A stretch of 64,000 bases of DNA, from NCBI GenBank assembly GCA_963765435.1, contig CAVXWK010000001.1:699294-763293 (forward strand), written 5' to 3'. The DNA is from an uncultured delta proteobacterium. Its GTDB lineage: Bacteria; Desulfobacterota; BSN033; UBA1163. Shown one piece after another: positions 8,541-33,616 of this stretch. Below the pieces are notes generated by a model. It made no database searches. It saw nothing but the letters and a program-made list of their open reading frames with translations, and was not told the origin of the DNA. The translations under genes were made by a program, and so were the position numbers. Within the stretch, counting starts at the first letter, position 1; each line of letters opens with the position of its first letter.

Positions 8541-9637
8541 TACTTTTTCCCCTGTTCTAAATAGCCCTCTAAGAGTATATCTTCTCCAATTCTTCTTGCT
8601 TTTATCTCCTTCAGAGGAATGGCTTCTTGAAGTTTGGATACACCTCTTCCTCCAAAGATTCCCGGTGCATGAGGGTCGCCGATCAGCTTGGGAGAAAGAA
8701 AGAGAAGAAGTTTGTCGATCAGACCTTCGTCGAGAAACGATCCATTGACCCGATTTCCTCCCTCGACCATAAGACTCACCATGCCGATCTCCCCCAATTT
8801 GGAAAGACATGACTTCAGATCGATTCTGCCCCCTTTGGATTCGAGGGTGAGGATCCGAACTCCTCTCTTTCCCAGTCTTTCTATTTTATCTTTAGGGGCT
8901 GACTCCGTTGCGACGATGATTACCTTTGTGGGAGAGTCTCCAAAGACTTTGGCCTCTTCCGGAACCTTCAATTGACTATCGAGAACAATCCGGTAGGGAT
9001 CTCTGCCCCCCTTGATTCGGGCTGTAAGCAACGGGTCATCTCCTAATATCGTCCCAATGCCCACAAGAACTCCATCGACCTGATCCCTCAATTTATGGAC
9101 GAAACGTCGTGAGGTCTCTCCGGAAATCCATTTGGAATTACCTTCCCGGGTTGCTATCTTTCCGTCCAGGGTAGCAGCGACCTTCAGAATCACAAAAGGC
9201 TCTTTTGCCGTGATATACTTACAGAAGGCTTCATTCAATTTCCGACATTCTTTCTCTAAAATTCCCACACGGACGCTGAGGCCCGCCTTTTTCAAAGTCT
9301 CGATCCCTTTTCCCTTTACCAACGGGTTGGGATCCTCGACGCCAATAGTCACGCTTTTGACACCCGCTTCAATCACTTGGGGAGCGCAGGGAGGAGTCTT
9401 TCCATAATGCGTGCACGGCTCCAGATTGATATAAAGGGTGGCTCCTTTCGCTTGTTCCCTTGCCCGTTGGAGTGCGATGATTTCGGCATGAGCCTCTCCT
9501 GCTCTCGCATGGTATCCTTCGCCGACCACGTTGCCATTTTTCACTAGAATGGCGCCGACCAAAGGATTGGGTGAAGTTCTTCCCCTCCCTTTCTCTGCGA
9601 GGCGGAGTGCTTTCCTCATCCAGTGTTCATCGTCCAT
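8540..9637 (-). CDS. ribD: bifunctional riboflavin deaminase/reductase RibD
   Basis: HAEIIAL...PCTHYGKTPPC deaminase motif plus reductase domain. Confidence 0.9.
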   Translation of the reverse strand: MDDEHWMRKALRLAEKGRGRTSPNPLVGAILVKNGNVVGEGYHARAGEAHAEIIALQRAREQAKGATLYINLEPCTHYGKTPPCAPQVIEAGVKSVTIGVEDPNPLVKGKGIETLKKAGLSVRVGILEKECRKLNEAFCKYITAKEPFVILKVAATLDGKIATREGNSKWISGETSRRFVHKLRDQVDGVLVGIGTILGDDPLLTARIKGGRDPYRIVLDSQLKVPEEAKVFGDSPTKVIIVATESAPKDKIERLGKRGVRILTLESKGGRIDLKSCLSKLGEIGMVSLMVEGGNRVNGSFLDEGLIDKLLLFLSPKLIGDPHAPGIFGGRGVSKLQEAIPLKEIKARRIGEDILLEGYLEQGKK

Positions 9638-9728
9638 ACATTTATTGAAAAAAATCGTGACAGTGGTTCGTGACTGTGACTGGTGCCTTAAATGATTTAC
9701 CCACCAGCCTCCTCACAAATCACCAACA

Positions 9729-10202
9729 CTATTTTTTCTTGGCCTCTTCCTTGTTCCCAAGCAGGTCCTTCAGCTCGTCAATAAATTCTTGAATATCCTT
9801 GAACTGCCTGTAGACAGAGGCAAAGCGCACATAAGCGACCCCGTCTAAACGATGGAGTTCCTCCATCACCCGCTCCCCGATCTCAGAGCTTTTTACTTCT
9901 CTTTCTCCTCTTTCCTGGAAATGAAGCTCCAGGCGATTAACAATCTTTTCGATCACGTTGATGCTGATCGGCCTCTTTTCGCAGGCCTTTTTTAGGCCGT
10001 TGAAGATTTTAAGGCGATTGAAAGGTTCTCTTCTCCCGTCCTTCTTGACGACCAGTGGTAGTGCGTCCTCCGCTCTCTCGCTGGTCGTGAACCGTTTATG
10101 GCAGCCGAGACACTCCCTCCTTCGTCGAATGGAGTCTTTGTCTTTTCCCAATCGGGAATCGACCACTTTGCTCTCAGGATGATTACAAAAAGGACATTTC
10201 AT
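9729..10202 (-). CDS. nrdR: transcriptional repressor NrdR
   Basis: MKCPFCNH...CLGC zinc ribbon and ATP-cone. Confidence 0.9.
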
Positions 10203-10738
10203 ATTTTTCGCCTAAACTTCTCAATTTTAATCCCTGACTCTTTTAGCATCTCTCTGGCCAGGGCATCCGCATAGCCGTCCTCATAAACGACGCTCTCAAT
10301 CCCGGCATTAATGATCATCTTCGAGCAAATCATACAAGGGTGGTTTGTGCAATAAAGGGTTGCTCCGCGGATTCCCACTCCATGGTAGGCCGCTTGGACA
10401 ATCGCATTCTGCTCGGCATGGAGGCCGCGGCAGAGTTCGTGTCGTTCCCCGGATGGGATTCCCTGCTTCTCGCGGAGGCAACCGATGTCTAGACAATGTT
10501 CCAGTCGGGAAGGAGCTCCATTGTAGCCGGTGGCCAAAATCTTCTTGTCTTTGACGAGAACAGCCCCTACCTGCCTTCGCAGGCAGGTTGACCGCTTGGC
10601 AACGAGATGGGTAATATCCATGAAATATTCTTCCCAGGAGGGTCGACGAAAGGAAAGCCTTTTTTTCTCTTTTGCTTTCAAGGGTGAGCCATTAGCGGAC
10701 GCTATACAGCCTTTCACGCATCCTGAAATCCGAAGCAC
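10199..10738 (-). CDS. dCMP deaminase (ComEB-like cytidine/deoxycytidylate deaminase)
   Basis: [11 protein letters not shown]...HAEQNAI...PCMICSK motifs; exact start uncertain (about 40-aa possible N-terminal extension). Confidence 0.8.
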
Positions 10739-20792: not shown

Positions 20793-20879
20793 GATTGATC
20801 TTTTATTAAACTTTTTTATGAAAGTCAAGAAAAATTAAGTGAGATTTCTGAAAAAGTGCAGAAATCTCTGATTACACTG

Positions 20880-21070
20880 ATTAGGAAACGATTACACCGA
20901 TCTAGTCCCCTTTCATCCCCTTTGTCAAAAGTGGGAAACCTCTCTCCTATTGGCAAACGGGAGAAGTCTCTCCACTCTCTTTACCGATACGGAGAAACCT
21001 CTCTCCCCCCTTCAGCAGAGGGGAAAAACCCCTCTCCTCCCTTTGGAAAAGGGAGGCTGGGAGGGATTTT
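20880..21070. repeat. cluster of 4-5 tandem degenerate 30-bp stem-loops (CCTCTCTCC-N-GGGAGAA type)
   Basis: gggaaacctctctcc / gggagaagtctctcc / ggagaaacctctctcc / ggggaaaaacccctctcctcc seen directly. Confidence 0.5.
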
Positions 21071-21105
21071 ACAAGATCGTTTCAAACGGTTAGGTTGACC
21101 AGAAA

Positions 21106-21276
21106 TCACTTGTCAAGAGGACCCCTTACACCGAGCACGTTCTTTGAGGCAACATGAGTGTAGATCATGGTGGTCTGGAGTTTTTGATAGCCGAGCAGTT
21201 CTTGACTCGTCCTGAAATCATATCCATTTTCAAGCAGGTATCCCGCAAACCGCTGTTCCAATGTATGGACAGAAAC
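21106..21276 (-). pseudogene. intI: integron-integrase (IntI-like tyrosine recombinase) C-terminal remnant B
   Basis: rc translation [56 protein letters not shown]; stop immediately upstream, no start codon. Confidence 0.6.
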
Positions 21277-21347
21277 CTATTTTGTTATCCCCGTTTGCTG
21301 CACTGCAGGCCTAAATGCCCGCTTTGACAGGGGGGGAAGTATTATGG

Positions 21348-21755
21348 TTAAAGCGGCTTTTTCATGTAAAGATTGTCAAGGGGGCTTTTTGGAATACTTA
21401 CCATATCTCTTATCACATGGGTGTAGATCATTGTGGTTTCAAGATGCTTATGACCCAGTAAACTCTGGATCTCCCTGATATTCACTCCGTTCATTAAAAG
21501 ATGTGTTGCGAAACTGTGTCTGAGGGTATGCACGGATGCGTGTTTCACAATGCCTGCCTTTTTCAGGGCCTCTTTTACAGCATTCTGAATCGCCTTCTCG
21601 CTTACATGGTGGCGTCTTATCTTTCCGCTTCTTGGGTCAACCGAGCGTTTTGATGAGGGGAAAACATACTGCCAGCCCCATTCTTTTGCGGCATTTGGAT
21701 ATTTGCGTTCCAGAGCATCTGGAAGGTAGACCTCCCCATGTCCTTCTGAATAGAC
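21348..21755 (-). pseudogene. intI: integron-integrase (IntI) C-terminal remnant A (N-terminal ~200 aa missing)
   Basis: [41 protein letters not shown] (IntI-specific patch) ...[12 protein letters not shown]...TTMIYTHV...SPLD; in-frame stop at 21756-58. Confidence 0.7.
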
Positions 21756-22171
21756 CTATTGTGAAAAAAAGGGGCTGATTTTAGGCTTAGAAGAGCAGTT
21801 TTGGGGTTGAAATCCCCCTGAGCAGGAATTCTATGGATGGCCATGGATACACGCAGAGTACCTGGAATTCCCTATAGCCCTAATTTTACCGATGAAAGTG
21901 GCGATTTAAGCCCAAAAAACACCTATTCCTGGAGCATATCTGATTGAATTTCAATAAGTTAGCTTGGTCCGACCCGAGCCGCAGAGCGGGGCATAAATAT
22001 TATTAGTCAATAGAAATACTTACTGAGGTTTCCACCATAAACACCACATCGCCGGGAATTGAGACTGGCCGATAAAAGCGAGACTGATGCAGTCCTCGGG
22101 TATGCCAAAGTGTCTGTCGGGACAGGCGTTACAAAGCACGATAAATTACTACTTGACAAGTTAGTTTACTA

Positions 22172-22939
22172 TTGGTATGTACTTTACCAATGGTAAACCA
22201 ACTTTTTATGAGTGTAGTCTTAAAACAAAAACATCAATCCCCTGGCCATTACAAGGAGGAACTTACATTGCTTCAGCAGGATAAACATAAAGCGGTCTGC
22301 CGTCAGAGAAGAGAAAGGGAAAAGAATCAACGTATTCAGAGTATCATTGACGCCGCCAGAAAAGTGTTCTCTTCAAAAGGTTATCTTAAATCGACCATGG
22401 ACGAAATCGCCATGGCCGCCGAGATAACCAAACCCACCATCTATTTACACTTTAAAACCAAGGACGATCTTTTATTAAGCCTCATGCAACCTTTGATTGA
22501 CGATATTCGGAACAGGCTGAAAATCGTTGAAGCAAAACTTCTGTCCGGGAAGATCAAAGACGGCCGCGGCCTGATCACCGGTATCTTCAGCGCCTTCTAT
22601 CACGGATATGAATCCTTGCCTGAAACATTTCGCATCGTTCAATTATTTCAGCAACGGGACCTGATAAGTGAACTAAGACCGGAAATCCGTTCTGCTTTGG
22701 ATGACAGGGGCCGGATCAACTTCGCTCTGTGCCGCCGTCTGCTGACAAAGGGCATGGAGAGGGGGTTGATCAAAAAGGTTGATATCTATGCGATGGCGGA
22801 TGTGATCTGGGCGTTGATGGTTGGCGTGATTCAACTGGAAGATTTTAAAGTCGATGACCAGAAGGGTCATAGATTGAAAAAAAACACGCTGGGTCTGGCA
22901 CAACGCCTGATTGTGGAAGCGCTGACCTGCGATACATAG
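22172..22939 (+). CDS. TetR/AcrR-family transcriptional regulator
   Basis: HTH region KSTMDEIAMAAEITKPTIYLHFKTKDDLL; start uncertain. Confidence 0.8.
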   Translation: MVCTLPMVNQLFMSVVLKQKHQSPGHYKEELTLLQQDKHKAVCRQRREREKNQRIQSIIDAARKVFSSKGYLKSTMDEIAMAAEITKPTIYLHFKTKDDLLLSLMQPLIDDIRNRLKIVEAKLLSGKIKDGRGLITGIFSAFYHGYESLPETFRIVQLFQQRDLISELRPEIRSALDDRGRINFALCRRLLTKGMERGLIKKVDIYAMADVIWALMVGVIQLEDFKVDDQKGHRLKKNTLGLAQRLIVEALTCDT

Positions 22940-22987
22940 AAAATATCATTTGAACAGGAAACAGGAGAAACAGAAAGGGAGAAACGA

Positions 22988-23086
22988 GGGGACGTTGTTG
23001 AAAGTTTACACTTTAGAATTTACTGAAATTCGATATTAGGTATGTTAGGCTAAGGCTGAAAAGGTGAACGTTTTCAACAACGTCCC
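22988..23086. repeat. 99-bp imperfect palindrome (16-bp perfect arms GGGACGTTGTTGAAA / TTTCAACAACGTCCC), possible attC-like site
   Basis: arms seen directly; right arm resembles 3' part of cassette repeats (TTTTTCAACAGTCCC at 28165). Confidence 0.4.
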
Positions 23087-23139
23087 TTTTTTCCTCTTCT
23101 CTACTACGGGTAATCAACGAAATAATAGGGAGAAGATCC

Positions 23140-23562
23140 GTGCTTATGAACTATAATGACACATTAAAAGAGCGTAGCCCATTTGTTAAATTTCTTGGAT
23201 TGCAAATAATCAAATTTGATAATGGATATTGCCACTCTAATTTGGAAATAAAAGACAATTTTTTGAATATCCATAAAGCTGTACATGGCGGGGTTATATA
23301 CTCCCTGGGAGATGTTGGGATGGGTGCTGCCCTGTATTCCACACTCAAAAAAGATGAAGAAGCATCAACCATCGAAATAAAAATAAACTATTTAAAACCA
23401 GCCTATAGCAAGATACTCGTCTGCGATGCAAAAGTCATTCAAAAAGGTAAAAGCATCGCCGTATTGGAGGCGGAAATACGAGCTGATGATATTTTAGTTG
23501 CAAAGGCCCTCGGTACTTATTCAATATTCAAAGCTAAAGATGATCCAAATATGCCACTTTAA
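23140..23562 (+). CDS. PaaI-family hotdog thioesterase
   Basis: VHGGVIYSLGDVGMGAA motif; very AT-rich gene. Confidence 0.75.
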   Translation: MLMNYNDTLKERSPFVKFLGLQIIKFDNGYCHSNLEIKDNFLNIHKAVHGGVIYSLGDVGMGAALYSTLKKDEEASTIEIKINYLKPAYSKILVCDAKVIQKGKSIAVLEAEIRADDILVAKALGTYSIFKAKDDPNMPL

Positions 23563-23637
23563 TAATTAATTTGGTTGCAATTTTAAAAAAAATAAAACAA
23601 GCTCTGATTTAGACAATAAATCGTTTACGAGCACAGC

Positions 23638-23830
23638 ATGACCCGTCCTCTTCGCATAGAACACCCTGGTGTCGTGTATCATGCTACCTCTCGCGGCAAC
23701 GAAAAGAAGAAAAGAAGGCCGTCGAGAGATATGCGTGCAGGCAGAGCGAGATTGCCCGGCACCTGAGTCTGCACGTCTCTCCTGTGAGCAATATTCTCCG
23801 TGTTAGAAATTGGCACCATAACAAAAGACC
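23638..23830 (+). pseudogene. remnant of IS200-like Y1 (REP-associated-type) transposase
   Basis: MTRPLRIEHPGVVYHATSRGN N-terminus then premature stop; downstream frame has EIARHLSLHVSPVSNILRV HTH-like piece. Confidence 0.45.
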
Positions 23831-23908
23831 TGTCCCAACTATACTATTATTTTTATCTTGGGTGAGCATTTGAAATAAAAAAAACTTGGAAAAAAGAGGA
23901 GGCCAGAC

Positions 23909-24373
23909 GTGGAGATTAAGAAGATATGCGTGTTAGGTGCGGGATTAATGGGTAACGGTATTGCTCAGGTTTGTGCTCAGGCGGGCTATGAAGTCAGCCT
24001 ACGGGATATCGAAAAGATGTTCCTCGATAACGGGATGAATACGATCAAGAAAAATCTGAGCCGCGAGGTTGCAAAAGGAAAGCGAACCCAAGAAGACGCA
24101 GATGCGATTCTGGGCAGAATAAAACCAACGCTCGATCTCAAGGAAGCCGCAAAAGATGCAGACATCATTATGGAAGTCGTGATTGAAGTCATGGATATCA
24201 AGAAAAAAGTCTATCAGGAACTGAAAGGAATTGTAAAACCTGATGGCCTTATTTTTAGCAATACATCCAGCTTGAGCATCACGGCGATGGCTGCAGCAAC
24301 GGACAGACCAGATAGATTCTATTGCAAAGAGTACAAAAGACGGGCTCTTGATCTCCGGGACAAAATGCTATAA
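23909..24373 (+). pseudogene. 3-hydroxyacyl-CoA (3-hydroxybutyryl-CoA) dehydrogenase, 3'-truncated
   Basis: ICVLGAGLMGNGIAQV NAD-binding N-terminal domain; sequence departs from family after SNTSSLSIT and stops; C-terminal domain absent. Confidence 0.6.
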
Positions 24374-25127
24374 CACGAATGCACCAAAGTCTAAATATAC
24401 CGTCCTTTATGGGACCGAGGATCCAACCGCCGATGATGCAGAAAATCCAATGTCTCAAAGCCTCATTCCTTTAAAAGATCCGACGATCACTGTAGAACGG
24501 GTTTTTATCCCAACCGTTCCAAAGGTTCATATTGGTAAAGAGACTTTCAAGGAAACACTTGTTCCCAATAAAAGAATACTCTGCGATGTGGGCAAGGGGA
24601 AATTCGGCCTGTTTGAAGGGCTTGCTGTCGAAAGGATAGGTATTGCCATATCCGCCGTCTGCCAGTGCTGGAGCTCTCTGATGCACGCTACAATCTATTC
24701 GAATTTGAGAAAACAGTTTGGCCAAGAGGTAAGCAGATTCCAGGGTGTAGGCTTCTTGCTGGCTGAATATTATGCAAAGGTTTCGACTATAACATTTGCT
24801 ACCCTTGCCTTCGCCCGGGGTTATGATGAAGCCGTTAAAAAGCACAAGGGCCATCTGCCTGATATACTCACTCAACAATATGTAATGGCTGCCTCGCAGA
24901 TGAAATATCAAGCAACACATCTTTCTGAACGATGCTGCTATGAGATGTGTAATATTATGGGCGGGAACGGCCTTAATGATAATACCTTAATGGATGACCT
25001 GATGGGTTTATCGCGAATCCAGGAGATAATAGGCGGATTCAGAGAGATTCAGCTTTCATATCATGATGGGCGCCATAAAAAAGATGTGGAGATTGATATA
25101 AACTATCCTTTGCTTATCCTATTCTAA
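24348..25127 (+). pseudogene. acyl-CoA dehydrogenase C-terminal fragment (N-terminal domain missing, degenerate)
   Basis: RIGIAISAV...FGQEVSRFQGVGFLLAEYYAKV ... GGNGLNDNTLMD resembles ACAD middle/C-terminal domains only. Confidence 0.5.
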
Positions 25128-25140
25128 GGAGGTTGATTCT

Positions 25141-26607
25141 ATGGCTTTAAAAACTAAGGAAGCATATTTTGAAAGTATCAGGCAATTGAATCTGCCCGTT
25201 TATGTAATGGGAGAGAAAGTTACAAACGTGGATCATCCCATGATCTGGCCTTCCATCAATAGCGTGGGAGTTACCTACGATCTTGCCCAGGATCCGCAAT
25301 ATGATGATCTGGCAACAGCCACATCGCATATCACGGGCAAAAAGATTAACCGTTTCTGTCATATCCATCAAAGTACGGAAGACCTGAGAAAGAAAATAAA
25401 ACTCCTCCGCCTGATGGGTCAAAAGACGGCGTCCTGCTTTCAGCGTTGTGCGGGTCTTGATGTGATGAATGCCCTCAATGCGACAACCTACGAAATGGAT
25501 GCGGATCTGAAAACGGAATATCATCAGAGATTTCTGAATTTTTTAAAGATCATACAGGAAGAGGATCTGGTCTGCGATGCGGCCATGACCGATGCGAAAG
25601 GAGATCGCTCCCTGCCTCCGAGCCAGCAGGCGGATCCTGACATGTATTTACATATCGTCAAGAAAGACGCCAAGGGCATTGTCGTGCGTGGTTGCAAAGC
25701 CCATCAAACCGGCGCTACCAATTCCCATTGGATAGCGGTGGTTCCCACCACAGCAATGAAAGAGGCGGATAAGGATTATACTGTTGCCTTTGTTACACCC
25801 TCTAACACTAAGGGGATCACCTATGTTTATGGCCGTCAGTCCTGCGACACGCGGAAGATAGAGGATGGTACCATCGATGTGGGAAACCTCAATTTTGGAG
25901 GACAAGAGGCATACATAATTTTTGATGATGTTTTCGTCCCCTGGGAGAATGTTCTCATGTGCGGCGAGACTGAGTATTCGGGGCGACTTGTTGAAATATT
26001 CGCTAATTACCACCGTACCAGCTATGGAGGTTGCAAGGTCGGCGTTGCCGATGTCCTAATCGGAGCTGCATCATTGATGACAGTATACAATGGTACGGCC
26101 AAAGCCTCCCATGTCAAGGACAAGCTGACAGAAATGGTTCACCTCGCCGAAACATGCCATGCGTGTGCGCTTGCCGCTCAATCCGAAGGAAGCCGTCACA
26201 GTTCCGGAGGCTATCTCGTGAACGGGTTATTGGCCAATGTCTGTAAACTCAATATTACCAGATTCCCTGCGGAGATTTCGCGTCTAACTCAGGATCTGGC
26301 GGGAGCTGTTATTGGGACAACTCCCTCGGAAAAGGATTTTGAGATACCCGGTGATGTCGGTAAACTCATGAAGAAGTATTTGAAAGGTCTGGCGGATGTT
26401 TCCTGGGAGGACAGGGTTCGCTGCATTCGGCTGATTGAGAACATCACGATGGGAACAGGAGCCGTAGCATTCTTTACGGAGTCGATTCATGGGGCTGGTT
26501 CCCCGCAGGCACAGAAAGTGATGATTTCCCGCTATAGCAATGTGAACATGAAAGAGAAAATGGCCAAAAAGATCGCGGGAATTCCAGACGACTCGGATAG
26601 TAAATAA
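25141..26607 (+). CDS. 4-hydroxybutyryl-CoA dehydratase/vinylacetyl-CoA isomerase-family (HpaB-like) protein
   Basis: 488 aa; family-typical length and motifs (recalled AbfD/HpaB fold). Confidence 0.7.
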   Translation: MALKTKEAYFESIRQLNLPVYVMGEKVTNVDHPMIWPSINSVGVTYDLAQDPQYDDLATATSHITGKKINRFCHIHQSTEDLRKKIKLLRLMGQKTASCFQRCAGLDVMNALNATTYEMDADLKTEYHQRFLNFLKIIQEEDLVCDAAMTDAKGDRSLPPSQQADPDMYLHIVKKDAKGIVVRGCKAHQTGATNSHWIAVVPTTAMKEADKDYTVAFVTPSNTKGITYVYGRQSCDTRKIEDGTIDVGNLNFGGQEAYIIFDDVFVPWENVLMCGETEYSGRLVEIFANYHRTSYGGCKVGVADVLIGAASLMTVYNGTAKASHVKDKLTEMVHLAETCHACALAAQSEGSRHSSGGYLVNGLLANVCKLNITRFPAEISRLTQDLAGAVIGTTPSEKDFEIPGDVGKLMKKYLKGLADVSWEDRVRCIRLIENITMGTGAVAFFTESIHGAGSPQAQKVMISRYSNVNMKEKMAKKIAGIPDDSDSK

Positions 26608-26787
26608 GAGGCAATCCGATTAAAAATTTTGGCCCGCACATAAAGATCAATCCCGCGACTTGGAATCCCCCGGCTCCGGCCGGAGGAGGAAAGCGCCGTG
26701 ACCCGCGGGAGGTCGCGATGTTTTAGGGAGCCTCCGGCTCCTGCCTGAGGGGGGCTCCACTTATAAATTAAGAGGAGGATTAGATAA

Positions 26788-27978
26788 ATGTCTAATGACG
26801 TAGTTGTGGCGGAAATGGGTAGGACAGCGGTGGGAAGGATGGGAGGTGGACTTGCCAATGTGCCATCCATCGAACTGGCCACCTTTATTATCTCTTCGAT
26901 TATGAAGAGGGTCAACTTCGATCCGGCGGAGATCAACGAAGTTATCCTGGGTAATGTGGAGAACCGGAGCAACGAAGCGTGTCTGGCCCGCTGGGCAGGT
27001 CAGCTGACCGGGTTGCCCGTCTCGGTAGTCGGATACGGCATCAACAAACTGTGCGGATCCAGTCTGAAGGCTTTGCATAATGCAGCGGATTCAATATTGG
27101 TCGGACGTAATGACGTAGTTCTGGCAGGCGGCGTGGAAAACATGTCCCAATACCGCTACGCCCTGAATAAAGCCAGGTTCGGGTACCGCATGGGAGACGA
27201 CATTCTGATAGATACCCTGATGCAGGTACTGGCGGATAATCCTGATCCGCAAAAACGGCCGGCGGCGCAAACAGCAGAAAATCTGGCTAAAATGTACAAA
27301 ATTACCCGGGAGGATCAGGATATTTTTGCCTACACAAGTCAGCAGAGAGCCATATCGGCGATCAAGGAAGGTAAGTTCAGAGAAGAGATCATTCCCATTG
27401 AGGCGAAAGTCAGCAAGAAAGAAACAAAAATCATTGATACGGATGAGCACCCCCGTGCGGAAACCACAGTGGAAGGACTCGCCAAGTTGTCCCCCATTAT
27501 TCCGAGCGGGACAGTTACGGCCGGCAATGCCTGCGGCATCAATGACGGGGCATCCCTCATGATGCTCATGAGTGAGAAGAAGGCCCAGGAGCTAAAGATG
27601 AAACCGATTGCCAAGATCAGAGGGTATGCGTCGGCTGGTGTCCCAATGCACATCTTCGGCATCGGTCCAGCCCCGGCTATAAGGGCTTCATTGAAAAGAG
27701 CGAACTTGAATCTGGGTGATATGGGGCTAATTGAGATCAATGAAGCGTTTGCCGCCCAGGTTATTGCCTGTGAAAAAGAACTGGGGCTGGACCACAACAT
27801 AGTCAACGCGGATGGCGGTGCCATCGCCTTGGGCCATGCCTTGGGCAACACGGGCACAAGGATCAGCATTACCCTTCTGAAAGAAATGGTCCGCAGAAAA
27901 TGCAAATACGGCGTCAGCAGTGCCTGCATCGGATCGGGATTGGGCATCGCCGTCGTTTGGGAGAACCTGAAATTATAG
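26788..27978 (+). CDS. acetyl-CoA C-acetyltransferase (thiolase)
   Basis: thiolase active-site contexts (NKLCGSSLKA, GNACGINDGAS, C-terminal CIGSGLG). Confidence 0.9.
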   Translation: MSNDVVVAEMGRTAVGRMGGGLANVPSIELATFIISSIMKRVNFDPAEINEVILGNVENRSNEACLARWAGQLTGLPVSVVGYGINKLCGSSLKALHNAADSILVGRNDVVLAGGVENMSQYRYALNKARFGYRMGDDILIDTLMQVLADNPDPQKRPAAQTAENLAKMYKITREDQDIFAYTSQQRAISAIKEGKFREEIIPIEAKVSKKETKIIDTDEHPRAETTVEGLAKLSPIIPSGTVTAGNACGINDGASLMMLMSEKKAQELKMKPIAKIRGYASAGVPMHIFGIGPAPAIRASLKRANLNLGDMGLIEINEAFAAQVIACEKELGLDHNIVNADGGAIALGHALGNTGTRISITLLKEMVRRKCKYGVSSACIGSGLGIAVVWENLKL

Positions 27979-28031
27979 AACAGTTCGCTAAAGGGAGTGA
28001 ACGGGTATTTGCAGGAATGGATGCAATGTAG

Positions 28032-28196
28032 AACTAACAGGGTCAGGTCTCAACAATCAACAAGGCTTTTTCACAAGTTAAGACCAGGCCAATTTCCAGA
28101 CCCCAAAGCCTTCACTGACAGAAAATAATTTTCTATTTTCGAACCGGCAGAAGAAGCGATTCTGAAAAGGCGACTTTTTCAACAGTCCCTTTACAT
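28032..28196. repeat. attC-like cassette-boundary repeat, family 1, copy 1
   Basis: about 150-bp imperfect repeat shared with 28785-28965 and 29575-29718; ends near GTTAAAA. Confidence 0.55.
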
Positions 28197-28212
28197 GTTA
28201 AAATAGATCTCC

Positions 28213-28386
28213 ATGAGTCTTACTGTCTTCAGAGAAAAAGGGTATAGATTTTATTTTCTTTCAAATGAAGAGAATAGAATCCATATCCACGTCACGTGCG
28301 AGGACGGAGAAGCTAAATTTAACATTGTTGAGGAGCATAGAGATGAAATCATTAAGGCGTCGCAAAAGCATTTCGGTAAGCGTTGA
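28213..28386 (+). CDS. DUF4160-family small protein
   Basis: MSLTVFREKGYRFYFLSNEENRIHIHVTCEDGEAKF matches DUF4160 pattern. Confidence 0.7.
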   Translation: MSLTVFREKGYRFYFLSNEENRIHIHVTCEDGEAKFNIVEEHRDEIIKASQKHFGKR

Positions 28387-28654
28387 AAATATAACCCCTC
28401 TTGGCATCTGGCTTTTTGTAAAAGAAACGGAATACTTTTTGAGCTATAAAGATTATCCTTATTTTATGGATCAAAGGTTGCGTTCCATACAAAATGTTCA
28501 GTTGCTTCACGGTTATCATTTATATTGGCCAGAATTGGATATTGATTTAGAAATTGATAACCTCGTAAATCCTCAAAAATACCCTCTGAAATCAAGCGCT
28601 ACAAAAAAGCGTCCGGCAACTCATTCAATGGGACGGCGAATAGCCTCCCGTTGA
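28343..28654 (+). CDS. DUF2442-family small protein (partner of DUF4160)
   Basis: MKSLRRRKSISVSVENITPLGIWLFVKETEYFLSY...LYWPELDIDLEID; overlaps upstream gene by 44 nt. Confidence 0.7.
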   Translation: MKSLRRRKSISVSVENITPLGIWLFVKETEYFLSYKDYPYFMDQRLRSIQNVQLLHGYHLYWPELDIDLEIDNLVNPQKYPLKSSATKKRPATHSMGRRIASR

Positions 28655-28784
28655 TTCTGTCGTTATACAATGGTTTGAAGGTCTTGGCAAACGGTGGTCT
28701 TCGCTACCATGAGCTGGCCGATGTCCAGCGCTGGGCGGAGTTTGTTAGGGTGAGGGGTCAGCCCTTGACGCAGGACAAATGGAA

Positions 28785-28965
28785 GCAAACAGGGTCAGGC
28801 CTCAAAAATCAACAAAGCTTCTTCAAAAGTTGAAACCAGGTCTTGGTACCAGACCCAAACATTTTCAACGACAGAGAATCATTTCCTATTTTTGATCCGG
28901 CAGAAGAAGCACTTCTTTAAAAAGCACCAATTTCTACAAGCTTGTTGCAAGGAAAATAGGTTGTT
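28785..28965. repeat. attC-like cassette-boundary repeat, family 1, copy 2
   Basis: shared core ...CATTTCCTATTTTTGATCCGGCAGAAGAAGCAC... Confidence 0.55.
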
Positions 28966-28982
28966 TCCAAAATGCACACAAT

Positions 28983-29282
28983 GTGCTACTATATAAGCGG
29001 ATGAAGTATATAAATTGGAATACGGAAAAAAGCCTGAGACTCAAGGAACTGAGAGGAATTTGTTTTGAGGATGTAGTGTACCATATTGAAAAAGGCGACG
29101 TTCTCGATGATTATGAGCATCCGAATCAAAAGCGATATTCAGGACAGCGGATAATGGTGATCGGCATAGACAACTATGCATACCTTGTCCCCTACGTTGA
29201 GGACATAGAAGAAATATTTCTGAAGACTATTATCCCGAGCGGGAAGGCTGCTGAAATTTATTTTGGGGGAAAAGCGAAATGA
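28983..29282 (+). CDS. BrnT-like (DUF497) type II toxin
   Basis: INWNTEKSLRLKELRGICFEDVV...DDYEH...QRIMVIGI pattern; followed by BrnA-like gene with 4-nt overlap. Confidence 0.6.
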   Translation: MLLYKRMKYINWNTEKSLRLKELRGICFEDVVYHIEKGDVLDDYEHPNQKRYSGQRIMVIGIDNYAYLVPYVEDIEEIFLKTIIPSGKAAEIYFGGKAK

Positions 29283-29557
29283 AAAACAGATTGGCGGAAG
29301 AAGAACAGGCAATATTGGACAGTTTTGAAAGAGGGGAATGGGTCCCAGTAAAGGCTCTTGCAAAACGGAAAAGAGAGCTAATCCGATACGCGAGAAACAC
29401 TTTAAAGAAAGATAAGAGATTGAACATCCGGATTTCCGAAAGAGACTTGAATGAACTGCAAAAAAAGGCAGTGAGCGAGGGATTGCCCTATCAGACATTT
29501 GTTTCCAGTATCATTCATAAATATGTTAACGGCAAACTAGTAGAGGCCAAGCGCTGA
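29279..29557 (+). CDS. BrnA-like ribbon-helix-helix antitoxin
   Basis: LNIRISERDLNELQKKAVSEGLPYQTFVSSIIHKYVNGKL typical BrnA/CopG antitoxin C-terminus. Confidence 0.7.
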   Translation: MKNRLAEEEQAILDSFERGEWVPVKALAKRKRELIRYARNTLKKDKRLNIRISERDLNELQKKAVSEGLPYQTFVSSIIHKYVNGKLVEAKR

Positions 29558-29574
29558 TTAAGAAGATCAAGTCC

Positions 29575-29718
29575 CGAAGATCAAGGTTCTTCAAAAGTTG
29601 AGACCAAGTTTCGTGACCAGACCCGGGGACTTCCAATGACAGAGAATCATTTCCTATTTTTGATCCGGCAGAAGAAGCACCTTTTAAAAAAGTGACCTTT
29701 TCTACAAGCTCGTTGGAT
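29575..29718. repeat. attC-like cassette-boundary repeat, family 1, copy 3 (ends in GTTGGAT core)
   Basis: GTTGGAT at 29712-29718 fits GTTRRRY 6 bp before the SDR start codon. Confidence 0.55.
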
Positions 29719-29723
29719 GGCCC

Positions 29724-30596
29724 TTGCGTAGAAACTGGATGGTGCACACCGTGCAAACACTTAGGAATCAGGTGATTTTAGTTACAGGTGCCACCGATGG
29801 CCTGGGGAAGCGAGTTGCCCGCGACTTGGCTGCGCGAGGGGCGACAGTTCTCCTGCACGGGCGCAGCCGGGAGAAGGGAGAAGCCACCCTTCAGGAAATC
29901 CGGGAAGCCACCGGTAACCAGAAGCTCAATTACTACAACGCCGACTTCTCCTCACTCGATGCAGTCCGACAGCTCTCCGAGGAGATACAGACTGACCAGG
30001 AGCGTCTCGATGTGCTCATTAATAATGCTGGCATTGGAGCGGGGTTGCGTCAGTCCCGGCGAGAGAAAAGTGCGGACGGCTACGAGTTACGCTTCGCTGT
30101 CAACTACTTAGCCCCCTTCCTCCTGACGCAACGGCTGCTGCCTTTGCTCCGCCGGTCGGCCCCTGCCCGTATCGTCAACGTCGCTTCAGCCGGCCAGCGG
30201 CCCATTGACTTTGACAATGTGATGCTGGAGGATGGGTACGATGGTCTGAGGGCATACCGACAGACCAAACTTGCGCTAGTGATGTTCACGTTCGATCTCG
30301 CTGAGGACTTGAGGAAAACCGGCATTACGGTCAACAGTCTTCACCCTGCAACCCTCATGAGCACAAGAATGGTGCTTGAGACCGATTACTTCGGGGGCCC
30401 GATCAGCACCGTAGAGGAGGGGGCGCATGCGGTAGAATACCTTGCTACGTCGTCCGAGCTCACTGGTGTGACTGGCGAATACTTTGACGGGAAGCAGCGG
30501 ACGCGTGCTAACGCTCAGGCCTATGACAAGGAGGCACGGCGGCGGTTGCGGATATTGAGCGAGCAACTTACTATAGCGAACGACATAGAAAAGTAG
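29724..30596 (+). CDS. short-chain dehydrogenase/reductase (SDR) family oxidoreductase
   Basis: VTGATDGLGK, NNAGI, Y...K SDR motifs; GC-rich relative to neighbours. Confidence 0.8.
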   Translation: MRRNWMVHTVQTLRNQVILVTGATDGLGKRVARDLAARGATVLLHGRSREKGEATLQEIREATGNQKLNYYNADFSSLDAVRQLSEEIQTDQERLDVLINNAGIGAGLRQSRREKSADGYELRFAVNYLAPFLLTQRLLPLLRRSAPARIVNVASAGQRPIDFDNVMLEDGYDGLRAYRQTKLALVMFTFDLAEDLRKTGITVNSLHPATLMSTRMVLETDYFGGPISTVEEGAHAVEYLATSSELTGVTGEYFDGKQRTRANAQAYDKEARRRLRILSEQLTIANDIEK

Positions 30597-30600
30597 TCAT

Positions 30601-30665
30601 TGCGAGGAGCGAAGCGACGTGGCAATCCCGCGAGATTGCTTCACTTCGTTCGCAATGACATGTTG
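30601..30665. repeat. imperfect palindrome (attC-like) downstream of the SDR cassette
   Basis: GTCATTGCGA...TCGCAATGAC outer arms with inner GCAATC-CCGCG-AGATTGC palindrome. Confidence 0.4.
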
Positions 30666-30723
30666 AGGATGTCAACTTATTTTTGTCGTTCGTTATAAGC
30701 TCAGGGAAAAGTGGAAGGAATAT

Positions 30724-30939
30724 ATGAAATATATGGTGGTTATTGAAAAAGGGAAGTCAAGTTTCGGTGCTCATGTTCCCGATCTGCCTGGATGTATAGC
30801 GGTAGGAAAAAGCCGAGAAGAAGTCCTCGAGCTTATCAAAGAGGCGATAGAGTTACATATCGAATCTCTTCGAGAATCGGGGAAGGAAATACCTTCTCCG
30901 TCGTCAGTTGGTGAATACGTGGAAGTAAAGGCAGCTTAG
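30724..30939 (+). CDS. HicB-family antitoxin (UPF0150), no adjacent HicA
   Basis: MKYMVVIEKGKSSFGAHVPDLPGCIAVGKSREE typical HicB N-terminus. Confidence 0.7.
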   Translation: MKYMVVIEKGKSSFGAHVPDLPGCIAVGKSREEVLELIKEAIELHIESLRESGKEIPSPSSVGEYVEVKAA

Positions 30940-30946
30940 TACACCA

Positions 30947-30989
30947 TTACAACGGACGCTGTACCTCCCGGTGAGCCATACCGTTGGGC
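30947..30989. repeat. short attC-like site (TTACAAC ... GTTGGGC)
   Basis: inverse-core-like TTACAAC and core-like GTTGGGC bracket a CAACGG/CCGTTG stem. Confidence 0.45.
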
Positions 30990-31058
30990 TATCAAGCTCG
31001 CTGGAGCAGGCAGCCTAAACCCAAAGGGTGTTGAGAATAAAAAAGGAGGGGAAATACG

Positions 31059-32942
31059 ATGATGATGTTAGAAACGATAGAATGGTTTGCTTCAATTGTC
31101 GGTGGTTTTATTGCTCTGATACTTTTTCTTCGCGGCTTTTGTTTGATCAGGGCCTATCAAGTCGGCATCCTGACTAAAAACATGTTCGGCAAAAAAATGC
31201 CCGAAGGACAAATCATCGCGCGTCATGGGCAAGTAGGGATTCAGGCGAAGACGTTGATGCCGGGGCTCTACTGGAGGCTGCCTATCATCTGGTCATTTAG
31301 AAAAGTTCCGGTCGTGACGATAGATATCGGCAGTATCGGTATTGTCGAATCGATTGACGGAGAAGCACTTCCTAAAGGGAGAGTGTTAGCCGACGAAGCC
31401 GAGTGTAATCAATTTCAAGATGCAGAGATGTTCTTAGCCAACCATGGGAAGAAGGGACCGCAAGTTGGAATTCTGCGTCCGGGTACCTACCGGATCAACA
31501 CGATACTGTTCAATATTGCCAAAGCCCCTGCAGTAAAAATAGCTGAGAATACCATTGGTGTCGCCGTTGCTAAAGATGGCATTCCCCTACCGACAGGCTA
31601 TATCATCGCTCCGAAGGCTAAAAATGATGACGGTACCGAAGCAGACCACAAATCTTATCAAAATGGCCAGCTCTTTATCGACAGCAAAGGATACCGGGGA
31701 CCACAGTTGGATACCCTGCAGCCGGGGATATATTACATCAATCCGAACTTATTTGATATTAAAATTGAAGAGGTAGCCGAGGTCCTTCCGGGATATGTCA
31801 CAGTGATCAGGTCGAACGTGGGACTAGAGCTTGAGAGGGCACCCGAAGGTCCCGATCGATCTACCGGGGAAGGAAAACTCTGTGGTCCGATCCATGAAGA
31901 TGTTGAGAAAATACTGATAACCGACAAATATACTCGCGGCATTTGGAGAGAGCCGATAGCACCAGGAAAATATAATCTGAATGCGATTGCTTTCACAGCC
32001 TATCAAGTACCTACTTCCGCCGTGACCATCGATTGGGCATCCGAGGGAAGAATCGGGACGGAGGTAAAGGGAATTAAACCAACCGAGGCTAAGGCTGCCG
32101 GGGTCCTGTACAGTTTCGATCCCTTGAAGGTGACTTCTAAAGATGGCTTTCAACTGGAAGTCAATGTCCGAATGGTGATTCGAATTCAACCGGGCAATGC
32201 GGCCTACATCATCGCGAGATTCGGGTCCGTGGCCAATCTGATTGATCAAATCGTACATCCGTTGATTGATTCATCTTTCAGGAATAAAGCCGGCGAGAAG
32301 AAAGCGATTGACTTTTTCCAGAGCCGGACGGACTTACAGACCGAAGCGCTGTTACACGCCAAAGAAAGATTTTCCGAGTACAACGTAGAGGCTCAAAACT
32401 TACTCATTGCCTATATCGATATCCCTAAGGATTTGCTGGACACTCAAACCAAGAAGGAGATTGCCAATCAGCAGCAAGCCCAGTATGACCAGGAGGCACT
32501 CGCTCAGGAAAAACGCATTGCGGTCATGGAGAAATCGTCCCGGGCGGATAAGCAGAAAGATGTTATTGATGCAAAATTATCTATCGATATCAATAATGAC
32601 AGGGCTGAGGCCAGAGTTAAGGAAGCCGACGGCATCAGGCGCTCTGTGATTCTCCAGGCTCAAGGGACTAAAGAATCCACGATACTGGTGGCTGACGGCA
32701 ATTCTTACAAAAGCAAGATTGAGGGCGACGGTGTCGCCGCTGCCTACAATGTCCAGAAAGAGGCCATTGGTCAGCAGAATGTAGCGATCATCAAACTCAT
32801 TCAGGAGATAGCGGCCGGTAAAATTCAGATCGTGCCACAGATTCTGGTTGGGGGTGGGGATGCTTCAGCGGGCGGCAACCTGTTCAATGCATGGTTAGCT
32901 CAAATGCTTTCACAAAAAGTACCGAAACAGGAGGGAAAATAG
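31059..32942 (+). CDS. flotillin-like SPFH/band-7 membrane protein (YqiK/FloT-like)
   Basis: N-terminal TM helix, SPFH-like core, coiled-coil Q/E/A-rich region and flotillin-type C-terminus (KIQIVPQILVGGGDAS...NLFNAWLAQM). Confidence 0.6.
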   Translation: MMMLETIEWFASIVGGFIALILFLRGFCLIRAYQVGILTKNMFGKKMPEGQIIARHGQVGIQAKTLMPGLYWRLPIIWSFRKVPVVTIDIGSIGIVESIDGEALPKGRVLADEAECNQFQDAEMFLANHGKKGPQVGILRPGTYRINTILFNIAKAPAVKIAENTIGVAVAKDGIPLPTGYIIAPKAKNDDGTEADHKSYQNGQLFIDSKGYRGPQLDTLQPGIYYINPNLFDIKIEEVAEVLPGYVTVIRSNVGLELERAPEGPDRSTGEGKLCGPIHEDVEKILITDKYTRGIWREPIAPGKYNLNAIAFTAYQVPTSAVTIDWASEGRIGTEVKGIKPTEAKAAGVLYSFDPLKVTSKDGFQLEVNVRMVIRIQPGNAAYIIARFGSVANLIDQIVHPLIDSSFRNKAGEKKAIDFFQSRTDLQTEALLHAKERFSEYNVEAQNLLIAYIDIPKDLLDTQTKKEIANQQQAQYDQEALAQEKRIAVMEKSSRADKQKDVIDAKLSIDINNDRAEARVKEADGIRRSVILQAQGTKESTILVADGNSYKSKIEGDGVAAAYNVQKEAIGQQNVAIIKLIQEIAAGKIQIVPQILVGGGDASAGGNLFNAWLAQMLSQKVPKQEGK

Positions 32943-33469: not shown

Positions 33470-33583
33470 GTCTCAGGATGCTTTATATATGAGCATCTCA
33501 TACCGGGAGGGGTCAAGATCCCCCAAAAACCACCCCCTCATTGTAACGGTGAGCTTTCTCTAAAGGCTCTTATCATTTTGCTC

Positions 33584-33616
33584 TTGACAATAGTAAACAA
33601 ATTGTTTACTATTGTC
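33584..33616. promoter_or_regulatory. sigma70-like promoter inside a 15-bp-arm perfect palindrome (putative HigA operator)
   Basis: TTGACA-17nt-TACTAT; GACAATAGTAAACAA|TTGTTTACTATTGTC ends 2 bp before higB ATG. Confidence 0.5.

What the first reader, a model, noticed from the sequence alone, without database searches (positions are those of the whole stretch)
22172..27978. AT-rich block of butyrate/4-hydroxybutyrate-type genes with two decayed ORFs
Between the intI remnants and the cassette array lies a compositionally distinct block, markedly AT-rich against about 50% elsewhere. It encodes a TetR regulator, a PaaI thioesterase and an N-terminal-only 3-hydroxyacyl-CoA dehydrogenase fragment (stops after the NAD-binding domain) that overlaps a C-terminal-only acyl-CoA dehydrogenase fragment. 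It also encodes an apparently intact 4-hydroxybutyryl-CoA dehydratase-family enzyme and a thiolase. This looks like a laterally acquired catabolic module undergoing pseudogenisation. A 99-bp palindrome at 22988-23086 after the TetR gene could be another attC-like site.
Basis: partly seen in the sequence, partly recalled or inferred. Interest (0 to 1): 0.55.

Follow-up and report, generated by a model that had tools for sequence, protein, structure and literature searches.

The report
Butyrate-type operon broken by one deletion
A six-gene fatty-acid/4-hydroxybutyrate operon in a sulfate-reducer-like bacterium lost 1,100 bases joining two neighbouring genes, leaving two dead fragments that drift neutrally while the downstream genes stay conserved; this is ordinary gene decay.

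Summary

**Deletion.** Close relatives (L008, L010, L020) carry the intact operon TetR-PaaI-Hbd(285 aa)-ACAD(434 aa)-AbfD-thiolase. The window lacks 1,100 nt of it:
- 447 nt of the hbd 3' end
- a 133-nt spacer
- 520 nt of the ACAD 5' end

The junction is at 24319|24320, not 24348-24373, and is out of frame.

**Not an assembly error.** The junction is identical in four 100%-identical assemblies and in five diverged alleles from other samples.

**Later lesions.**
- A +1 T frameshift at 25054-25056, shared only with L027.
- A 66-nt intergenic deletion.

**Selection.** The fragments show 26 nonsynonymous to 10 synonymous changes, as expected under neutrality. abfD shows 9:18, which indicates purifying selection (Fisher p=0.004).

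**"Markedly AT-rich" is overstated.** The block is 46.4% GC against 48.2% for the window, about 1 SD low. The thiolase gene is 52%.

**The 99-bp palindrome is not attC-like.** It is one copy of a roughly 118-nt dispersed intergenic repeat. Its core-site polarity is the wrong way round, and a T-tract follows the hairpin.

**Verdict.** Real but ordinary, low interest.

The parts
21986..28023 (+). The 6-kb module shared with relatives that carry it in another genomic context
   Evidence: Blastn against L008, L010 and L020 gives 95-98% identity from 21986 to 28023 only. The sole interruptions are indels and the 1,100-nt deletion. In L008 the left boundary abuts the end of an IS3-like remnant.
22164..22198 (.). 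14-bp-arm palindrome GTTTACTATTGGTA-N7-TACCAATGGTAAAC, a candidate TetR operator; a TTGACA hexamer lies at 22153-22158
   Evidence: One search reports the stem. One search finds both perfect half-sites only here in 64 kb. The operator role is inferred, not tested.
22208..22939 (+). TetR-family regulator, intact. The start is uncertain: 22172 TTG, 22190 ATG or 22208 ATG.
   Evidence: Pfam TetR_N E = 1.1e-16. The weak best NCBIfam hit is FadR-type. It is called as 243 aa in L008 and L011.
22979..23096 (+). About 118-nt palindromic dispersed repeat (core 22988-23086) followed by T6. It looks like an intrinsic terminator or MITE/REP element and is not attC.
   Evidence: Searches show the hairpin. 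L008 has two copies, and 11 metagenome loci carry it, including non-module contexts and tandem pairs.
23140..23562 (+). PaaI/4HBT hotdog thioesterase, intact ORF, 36% GC
   Evidence: Pfam 4HBT E = 2e-14. TIGR00369 E = 3e-19. GC.
23626..23858 (+). Remnant of a RayT/Y1-transposase-derived mini-element. Its left inverted repeat was lost in a window-specific 66-nt deletion at 23625|23626.
   Evidence: The N-terminal peptide matches short ORFs annotated RayT / PF01797.
23909..24373 (+). hbd' pseudogene ORF. Codons 1-137 (to 24319) are true Hbd sequence; the last 17 codons are out-of-frame ACAD sequence.
   Evidence: Full-length L008 Hbd is 285 aa with PF00725.
24319..24320 (.). Deletion junction ...GATAGATTC|TATTGCAAAG.... 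It removes L008 positions 9421-10520 (1,100 nt) and shares only 1 nt of microhomology.
   Evidence: The junction is identical in window, L011, L024, L025, L026 and L027.
24320..25127 (+). 'acad pseudogene, corresponding to codons ~174-434 of a 430-434-aa ACAD. The reading frame is open from 24276 and the first start codon is at 24348.
   Evidence: One search gives the alignment to P0001 (93% identity, 430 aa). One search shows DNA homology to L007 starting at 24315. One search gives the PDB ACAD alignment from residue 150.
25054..25056 (+). +1 T insertion (TT to TTT) that frameshifts the last 15 codons of 'acad. The native stop would be at 25099-25101.
   Evidence: It is shared only with L027 and is absent from L011, L025, L026, L007, L008 and L020.
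25141..26607 (+). abfD, 4-hydroxybutyryl-CoA dehydratase / vinylacetyl-CoA isomerase, intact
   Evidence: PDB 1U8V E = 2e-184 over residues 3-481. The CFQRC and HRxSYGGC motifs are conserved. dN/dS is about 0.10.
26788..27978 (+). Thiolase (acetyl-CoA C-acyltransferase), intact
   Evidence: Thiolase_N and Thiolase_C match over full length. TIGR01930 E = 4e-125, above its cutoff. dN/dS is about 0.10.
21348..21713 (-). intI pseudogene, C-terminal third only, including the IntI-specific ALERKYP...W.WQ.VFP region
   Evidence: TIGR02249 positions 201-315 of 315, E = 1e-51, below the full-length cutoff. Translation.
21106..21261 (-). Second, different intI C-terminal remnant
   Evidence: TIGR02249 positions 267-314, E = 3e-14.

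Best explanation
The block is an accessory, TetR-headed short-chain acyl-CoA operon: TetR, PaaI thioesterase, Hbd, a divergent ACAD, AbfD and thiolase. It sits in a variable island beside two dead integron-integrase genes.

In an ancestor of this strain, one illegitimate-recombination deletion of 1,100 nt removed three things:
- the hbd 3' end, including the catalytic His region and the C-terminal domain
- the hbd-acad spacer
- the first ~173 codons of acad

The remainders were joined out of frame. Both fragments are dead and have since drifted neutrally. This sublineage then added a +1 frameshift near the acad 3' end and a 66-nt intergenic deletion.

abfD and the thiolase gene are still intact and under purifying selection, so the module is partly decayed rather than wholly dead.

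The palindrome after TetR is a copy of a dispersed hairpin repeat. It probably acts, at most, as a terminator.

Shown: the gene identities, the deletion, its inheritance and the substitution patterns. Inferred: the pathway role, the operator, the terminator function and lateral origin.
For: **Intact operon in relatives.** L008, L009 and L010 carry the same order with Hbd at 285 aa and ACAD at 434 aa. L020 does too.

**Breakpoints.** Base-level mapping shows 1,100 nt missing and 1 nt of microhomology.

**Independent recovery.**
- Four other assemblies are 100% identical across the region.
- Five diverged alleles from other samples carry the same junction.

**Second lesion.** The +1 T insertion is found only in the window and L027.

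**Substitution pattern**.
- hbd' plus 'acad show 26 N : 10 S, consistent with the neutral expectation (binomial p = 0.42).
- abfD shows 9 N : 18 S (p = 8e-7 against neutral). Fisher p = 0.004.
- With L007 as the close outgroup, 'acad in the deletion lineage shows 10 classifiable N: 1 S (plus one unclassified codon), against 6:9 in intact lineages.
- Changes hit family-invariant columns: in GGSRQIQ, S to F is private to the window and Q to E is shared with L027, giving GGFREIQ; R to P in ENRMSQ is fixed in all deletion alleles.

**Downstream genes are intact.**
- AbfD aligns full length to 1U8V with the Fe-S ligand motifs.
- Thiolase matches over full length.
- Both have dN/dS of about 0.10 against L008.
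Against: - No read-level or expression data were available.
- hbd and acad also show higher N:S than abfD and thl in the intact lineages (14:13 against 27:65). Part of the contrast therefore reflects generally weaker constraint on the 5' genes.
- Substitution counts are small.
- The hbd' ORF keeps a good ribosome-binding site and start codon, so a truncated peptide could still be made.
- Purifying selection on abfD within the deletion clade alone rests on few polymorphisms (4 N : 5 S).
Confidence: 0.9

Rival explanations
1. The hbd'-'acad fusion is an assembly or sequencing artefact, and the genome really carries full-length genes.
For: The source is a metagenome-assembled genome. The +1 T lies in a short homopolymer.
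Against: - The lesion is a 1,100-nt gap, not an indel.
- The same junction appears in an NCBI MAG, three Logan assemblies at 100% identity and five diverged alleles from JGI, NCBI, Logan and ENA samples.
- The +T is also present in the independent ENA assembly L027.
Confidence: 0.02
2. The truncated products are functional. Examples would be a 154-aa Rossmann NAD-binding protein or a C-terminal ACAD module, or the deletion was selected because removing Hbd and ACAD rewires flux through AbfD and thiolase.
For: - The deletion allele persists in at least six diverged strains.
- hbd' keeps its SD sequence and start codon.
- abfD and thl remain constrained.
Against: - The hbd fragment lacks the HFFNP His region and the whole C-terminal domain.
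- 'acad lacks about 173 N-terminal residues and has no SD sequence before its first start codon.
- The fragments' N:S of 26:10 fits neutrality.
- A later frameshift and hits at invariant residues occurred in 'acad.
Confidence: 0.07
3. The block is a giant integron cassette, or a set of cassettes, and the 99-bp palindrome is one of its attC sites.
For: - It lies directly downstream of intI remnants.
- Small toxin-antitoxin-type genes separated by a repeated ~190-nt element follow it, and their content differs between strains.
Against: - The palindrome arms read GTTGTTG...CAACAAC, the opposite order to R''(..AAC)...R'(GTT..).
- It has no unpaired central spacer.
- It lies inside the conserved module.
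- Other copies sit in unrelated intergenic contexts.
- The module's left boundary in L008 is an IS end.
- A simple R''/R' hairpin scan found no attC-like site in or flanking the block.
- The ~190-nt repeats do not fold as a single hairpin.
Confidence: 0.04

Closest known systems
Clostridial/4-aminobutyrate-type AbfD-Hbd-thiolase chemistry (AbfD of Clostridium aminobutyricum, PDB 1U8V; Hbd of C. butyricum, PDB 4KUG family)
   Same: - AbfD matches at E = 2e-184 with the Fe-S ligand motifs.
- The hbd fragment matches Hbd at E ~ 1e-35 to 5e-37.
- The enzyme set would link 4-hydroxybutyryl-CoA or crotonyl-CoA to acetyl-CoA. This rests on established knowledge of these families.
   Different: - The block has no crotonase, CoA-transferase or 4-hydroxybutyrate dehydrogenase.
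- It adds a TetR, a PaaI thioesterase and a divergent ACAD.
- Hbd and ACAD are inactivated here.
Unitary pseudogenes formed by intra-operon deletion in bacterial accessory regions
   Same: - A single illegitimate deletion with minimal microhomology produces an out-of-frame fusion.
- Secondary frameshift and missense changes follow, with neutral N:S.
   Different: Nothing is unusual here. The only notable point is that the allele is widespread, in six diverged strains, while the flanking genes stay constrained.
Degraded chromosomal integron (CALIN / intI-pseudogene class of Cury et al. 2016, PMC4889954)
   Same: intI pseudogenes carrying the IntI-specific region lie next to an array of small accessory genes. 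That paper found intI pseudogenes near 15 of 279 CALINs.
   Different: Canonical attC sites were not demonstrated here. The block itself is not delimited by attC-like sites.
ACADs whose catalytic Glu sits at the IVD/LCAD position (the arrangement engineered in the MCAD E376G/T255E mutant, PDB 1EGC)
   Same: The family has VERIG aligned to the 255-equivalent Glu, and IIGG where MCAD has YEGT.
   Different: - The proteins are ~430 aa with an extra N-terminal extension.
- The nearest named relatives are Asgard archaeal, at 54-58% over the full-length alignment and 57-63% by BLASTP local identity.
- The substrate is unknown.
- The copy in this window is a fragment.

Membership tests
attC recombination site (for palindrome 22988-23086) | Outer core sites in the order 5'-R''(RYYYAAC) ... 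R'(GTTRRRY)-3' | tested here: not met
   The arms are GGGGACGTTGTTGAAAG ... CTTTTCAACAACGTCCC, so GTT precedes AAC on both strands. The flanks carry no GTTRRRY.
attC recombination site (for palindrome 22988-23086) | Imperfect hairpin with an unpaired central spacer and extrahelical bases between the R and L boxes | tested here: not met
   The fold is a ~22-bp near-perfect stem with one small bulge and a ~50-nt loop whose sequence is conserved.
attC recombination site (for palindrome 22988-23086) | Sits at a cassette boundary, so presence/absence polymorphism breaks at the site | tested here: not met
   The palindrome is internal to the module conserved between contexts. Additional copies occur in unrelated intergenic sites and as tandem pairs.
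attC recombination site (for palindrome 22988-23086) | Scores with the IntegronFinder attC covariance model | not testable with these tools
   The model is not available here. Rfam has no match at E <= 1.
3-hydroxybutyryl-CoA dehydrogenase (Hbd) | Complete N-terminal NAD domain including the catalytic His (HFFNP region), plus the C-terminal PF00725 domain | tested here: not met
   Only profile positions 1-133 of 180 of 3HCDH_N are present and PF00725 is absent. The alignment stops at residue 135-138 of 282-302. L008 Hbd continues IGAHFFNPV....
Acyl-CoA dehydrogenase | N-terminal alpha domain, middle beta domain and C-terminal alpha domain in one reading frame | tested here: not met
   Only Acyl-CoA_dh_1 scores. 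The alignment starts at residue ~150-174 of full-length proteins. The 3' end is frameshifted.
4-hydroxybutyryl-CoA dehydratase (AbfD) | Full-length HpaB_N plus HpaB fold with the [4Fe-4S] ligand motifs (Cys99, Cys103, His292, Cys299 of 1U8V) | tested here: met
   Matches 1U8V at E = 2e-184 over residues 3-481. ASCFQRC and YHRxSYGGCK are aligned and conserved. Activity was not tested.
Thiolase | Thiolase_N plus Thiolase_C over full length, scoring above the curated cutoff | tested here: met
   Pfam profiles match 1-260/260 and 2-122/123. TIGR01930 scores 417.8 bits against a 240.55 cutoff.
Integron integrase (IntI) | Full-length tyrosine recombinase with the IntI-specific insertion near patch III | tested here: not met
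   Only model positions 201-315 and 267-314 are present, with scores of 176 and 53 against a cutoff of 265. These are pseudogenes that do retain the IntI-specific motif.
Laterally acquired island | Atypical composition relative to the host genome | tested here: inconclusive
   GC is 46.4% against 48.2%, about 1.1-1.4 SD low. Only PaaI (36%) is clearly atypical. Only 64 kb of the host genome was available.
Laterally acquired island | The same segment at high identity in a different genomic context, bounded by mobile-element remnants | tested here: met
   21986-28023 is 95-98% identical to L008, L010 and L020 with unrelated flanks. An IS3-like end and RayT-type mini-elements sit at the boundaries.

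The most novel reading that the evidence does not exclude
The 6-kb operon may be a unit moved between genomic contexts by the hairpin-type repeats around it. In all three contexts its right end is followed within about 20 nt by the same GGGTCAGGTCT motif. That motif is the terminal inverted repeat of RayT/Y1-transposase-derived mini-elements. Such mini-elements, and a ~118-nt palindromic repeat, are embedded in the module. On this reading, Y1-transposase-associated repeats rather than integron recombination delivered the operon into a dead integron platform.
Probability: 0.08. Interest if true: 0.45.

Novelty: new member of a known kind. Interest (0 to 1): 0.15.

Why it matters
The value is mainly practical.
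- **Annotation.** Two ORFs that NCBI names as ordinary 3-hydroxyacyl-CoA dehydrogenase and acyl-CoA dehydrogenase family proteins (MGO8989302.1 and MGO8989301.1) are dead fragments. They should not be counted in metabolic reconstructions of this Thermodesulfobacteriota-like MAG.
- **Population genetics.** The locus is a clean natural example of an operon decaying in steps. A dated order of lesions is visible across strains, and selection is retained on the remaining genes.
- **Scope.** It opens no new mechanism.

Tried and rejected
- **Rfam.** At gathering thresholds and at E <= 1 over 20800-31100, nothing relevant matched.
- **attC scan.** A home-made R''/R' hairpin scan of 20-46 kb found only coding-sequence chance hits and the 30575-30694 palindrome. 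That palindrome turned out to be a MITE with a TA duplication, not an attC.
- **~190-nt repeats.** Folding them as attC gave no single hairpin.
- **GTDB genome scan with the intact ACAD.** It returned only one Asgard locus without the operon, so no named close relative was obtained.
- **ACAD neighbourhoods.** In L005, L006 and L012 the ACAD stands alone, which gave no functional clue.
- **RayT-like remnant.** Pfam and NCBIfam on the fragment were uninformative because it is too short. A protein search was needed instead.
- **TetR operator.** A search for further copies of the half-site in the block found none.
- **Literature.** A search for this operon in Syntrophales-like bacteria found nothing specific.

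Full report
**Observation**

- TetR at 22172/22208-22939.
- A PaaI/4HBT hotdog thioesterase at 23140-23562.
- A 154-aa ORF at 23909-24373 that matches only positions 1-133 of the 180-position 3HCDH_N profile.
- A 259-aa ORF at 24348-25127 that matches only the ACAD C-terminal domain.
- A full-length HpaB/AbfD-family protein at 25141-26607.
- A full-length thiolase at 26788-27978.

Against solved structures, the hbd fragment aligns to residues 1-135 of Hbd proteins of 282-302 aa. The ACAD fragment aligns from about residue 150 to the end of 380-396-aa ACADs.

AbfD matches Clostridium aminobutyricum AbfD (1U8V) at E = 2e-184 over residues 3-481. The Cys-x3-Cys and His...Cys cluster-ligand motifs are conserved.

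**Composition**

The window averages 48.2% GC and the block 46.4%. Same-size sliding windows have an SD of 1.6-1.8%, and 8% of non-overlapping windows are at least as AT-rich.

The low values come from 22172-26000 (43.6%), above all PaaI (36%, GC3 33%) and the intergenic repeats. The thiolase gene is 52%. "Markedly AT-rich" is therefore an overstatement, and composition alone does not mark the block as foreign.

**What happened to hbd and acad**

A protein search with the ACAD fragment found full-length relatives of 430-434 aa. These include P0001 at 93% identity (alignment).

Contigs encoding the close relative P0159 (L008, L009, L010) carry the complete operon. The order is TetR(243)-PaaI(140)-Hbd(285, with PF00725)-ACAD(434)-AbfD(488)-thiolase(396).

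The window matches L008 at 95-98% identity from 21986 to 28023, except that L008 9421-10520 is absent.

At base level the window reads ...GACAGACCAGATAGATTC|TATTGCAAAGAG.... The left part matches L008 hbd and the right part matches L008 acad, with only a single C shared at the junction.

The deletion is 1,100 nt:
- 447 nt of the hbd 3' end
- the 133-nt spacer
- 520 nt of the acad 5' end

Because 1,100 is not a multiple of three, hbd' runs 17 codons into out-of-frame acad sequence and stops at 24373. The real junction is 24319|24320.

The lost hbd part includes the IGAHFFNPV segment that follows the breakpoint in L008. In this family that segment carries the catalytic histidine (established knowledge of HAD/Hbd enzymes). 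The whole C-terminal domain is also lost.

**Not an artefact**

The region is 100% identical in an NCBI MAG and three independent Logan assemblies.

More tellingly, the 154-aa product exists as seven allelic variants, all with the same junction tail. I fetched the DNA of five diverged alleles: L011, L024, L025, L026 and L027. They come from JGI, NCBI, Logan and ENA samples and are 98.5-99.5% identical to the window. All have the identical junction.

**Later decay**

The window's acad 3' end reads IQLSYHDGRH.... Intact relatives read IQLHIMMGAIRKMWRLI*.

The cause is one extra T at 25054-25056. It is shared only with L027, so it postdates the deletion.

The window also lacks 66 nt of the PaaI-hbd spacer that L011 and L008 retain.

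**Selection**

Against L008, abfD and thl have dN/dS of about 0.10.

Changes in or leading to the six deletion alleles were polarised with L008, L020 and L007.
- hbd' plus 'acad show 26 nonsynonymous and 10 synonymous changes. This is indistinguishable from the neutral expectation of 78% nonsynonymous (p = 0.42).
- abfD shows 9:18 (p = 8e-7 against neutral).
- The contrast between the two gives Fisher p = 0.004.

With L007 (97.5% identical, intact) as the closest outgroup, 'acad in the deletion lineage shows 10 classifiable nonsynonymous changes (plus one unclassified codon) to 1 synonymous. Intact lineages show 6:9.

Several changes hit family-invariant positions. R to P in ENRMSQ is fixed in all deletion alleles. 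In GGSRQIQ, S to F is private to the window and Q to E is shared only with L027.

One caveat applies. Even in intact lineages the 5' genes have higher N:S than abfD and thl. PaaI is odd, with 8-10 nonsynonymous and no synonymous changes.

**Context and lateral origin**

- Upstream of 20.8 kb the window holds housekeeping genes: riboflavin synthesis, plsX/fabD/fabG/fabF, rpmF and pycB.
- At 21106-21713 lie two different IntI C-terminal remnants. One retains the IntI-specific ALERKYP..W.WQ.VFP region.
- Downstream are toxin-antitoxin-type small genes separated by a ~190-nt repeat. Their content differs from the sister strain L011.

The module appears in L008 and L020 in an unrelated neighbourhood. 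There, its left edge abuts the terminus of an IS3-like remnant. Its right edge is followed by a RayT-derived mini-element.

Synonymous divergence from L008 is 0.055 for TetR, hbd and acad but 0.16-0.17 for abfD and thl. The module is therefore itself mosaic.

Together this supports an accessory, horizontally mobile segment. It does not support composition as the evidence for that, and it does not establish direction or mechanism.

The organism is a Thermodesulfobacteriota-like MAG. Cluster-mates are named Smithellaceae, Desulfomonilia and Thermodesulfobacteriota. It was not found among the GTDB representatives by the ACAD scan.

**The palindrome**

22988-23086 is a genuine hairpin, but it fails the attC criteria set out in Cury et al. 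2016 (PMC4889954).
- The arms carry GTTGTTG...CAACAAC, the reverse of R''(..AAC)...R'(GTT..).
- There is no unpaired central spacer.
- The element is internal to the conserved module.

It is about 118 nt long and repeated.
- L008 has a second copy 1.5 kb upstream, outside the module.
- An exact-arm search of metagenomes found 11 loci.
- Some of those copies are 96-98% identical and lie away from the module.
- Others are 76-81% identical copies, some of them tandem pairs, beside unrelated genes.

On the + strand the stem is followed by TTTTTT. The most economical reading is a MITE/REP-like repeat that can serve as a terminator after TetR (inference).

A better regulatory candidate lies upstream of TetR. 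This is the perfect 14-bp-arm palindrome at 22164-22198, next to a TTGACA hexamer, and it is unique in the window.

**Verdict**

It can now be stated precisely: one inherited 1,100-nt deletion plus later small lesions, with the downstream genes still under selection.

The AT-richness and attC suggestions do not hold up.

This is ordinary accessory-genome decay. Its main use is to correct the annotation of two "enzymes" that NCBI names as normal proteins.

Noticed in passing
window 22979-23096; L008 6468-6590 and 8013-8135; L014, L021; L015-L019, L022, L023: A ~118-nt palindromic repeat with a conserved loop sequence is dispersed in metagenomes. Some copies are 96-98% identical and others 76-81%, sometimes as tandem pairs ~140 nt apart, beside unrelated genes. 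It has no Rfam match.
   Followed up: partly
window 23626-23858; L008 8686-8952 and 14234-14498: A ~265-nt mini-element encodes the first ~24 aa (MTRPLRIEYPGAVYHVTSRGN) and an HTH tail of a RayT/Y1-transposase-like gene. It is bounded by inverted repeats GGGTCAGGTCTTTTGT. A protein search found 90 relatives, all only 33-99 aa, some annotated RayT / PF01797. The same GGGTCAGGTCT motif follows the module's right end in the window, L008 and L011.
   Followed up: partly
window 30574-30696: A 120-nt near-perfect palindrome (-31.9 kcal/mol) containing a CATTGCGAGGAGCGAAGCGACG-type core is absent from sister strain L011. It is flanked by a duplicated TA, so it looks like a MITE insertion. It replaces the last codons of the short-chain dehydrogenase gene.
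   Followed up: partly
window 28018-28214, 28772-28966, 29544-29722; L011 7870-8044: Three copies of a 180-195-nt repeat (75-80% identical) separate toxin-antitoxin-type small genes, and the genes between them differ in L011. The repeats end in GTT(A/G)(G/C)AT-like motifs. They do not fold as one attC hairpin, so their relation to integron attC sites is unresolved.
   Followed up: partly
window 21106-21261(-) and 21348-21713(-): Two different integron-integrase C-terminal remnants, roughly half identical to each other by eye, lie side by side. No N-terminal half was found for either.
   Followed up: partly
window 24320-25127; P0001-P0120; L012: The ACAD belongs to a ~430-aa family whose named relatives are overwhelmingly Asgard archaea (Promethearchaeota, Lokiarchaeia, Hodarchaeota) at 49-63% identity. 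The family has Glu at the IVD/LCAD catalytic position and Gly where MCAD has Glu376. In archaeal and other contigs it is not next to AbfD.
   Followed up: partly
window 23140-23562: PaaI thioesterase is 36% GC. It shows 8-10 nonsynonymous and 0 synonymous differences among window, L011, L008 and L020, unlike every other gene in the block.
   Followed up: no
window 22211-27978 vs L008: Synonymous divergence is about 0.055 for TetR, hbd and acad but 0.16-0.17 for abfD and thiolase. This implies recombination within the module.
   Followed up: no
L008 7904-8012: Intact-operon relatives carry 109 extra nt between TetR and the palindrome. These translate to ...LTEAESKILLSAYGIPV, which from memory resembles the start of ADP-forming acyl-CoA synthetases. 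The segment is absent in the window and L011.
   Followed up: no
window 20900-21060: There is a run of short GGAGAGG/CCTCTCC-type repeats (three ~28-nt units) between the phosphoribosyltransferase gene and the intI remnants.
   Followed up: no
window 33498-33597(-): ARAGORN calls a 100-nt tRNA-Ser(aga), but Rfam's tRNA model does not report it at gathering threshold. It is probably a false positive or a remnant.
   Followed up: no
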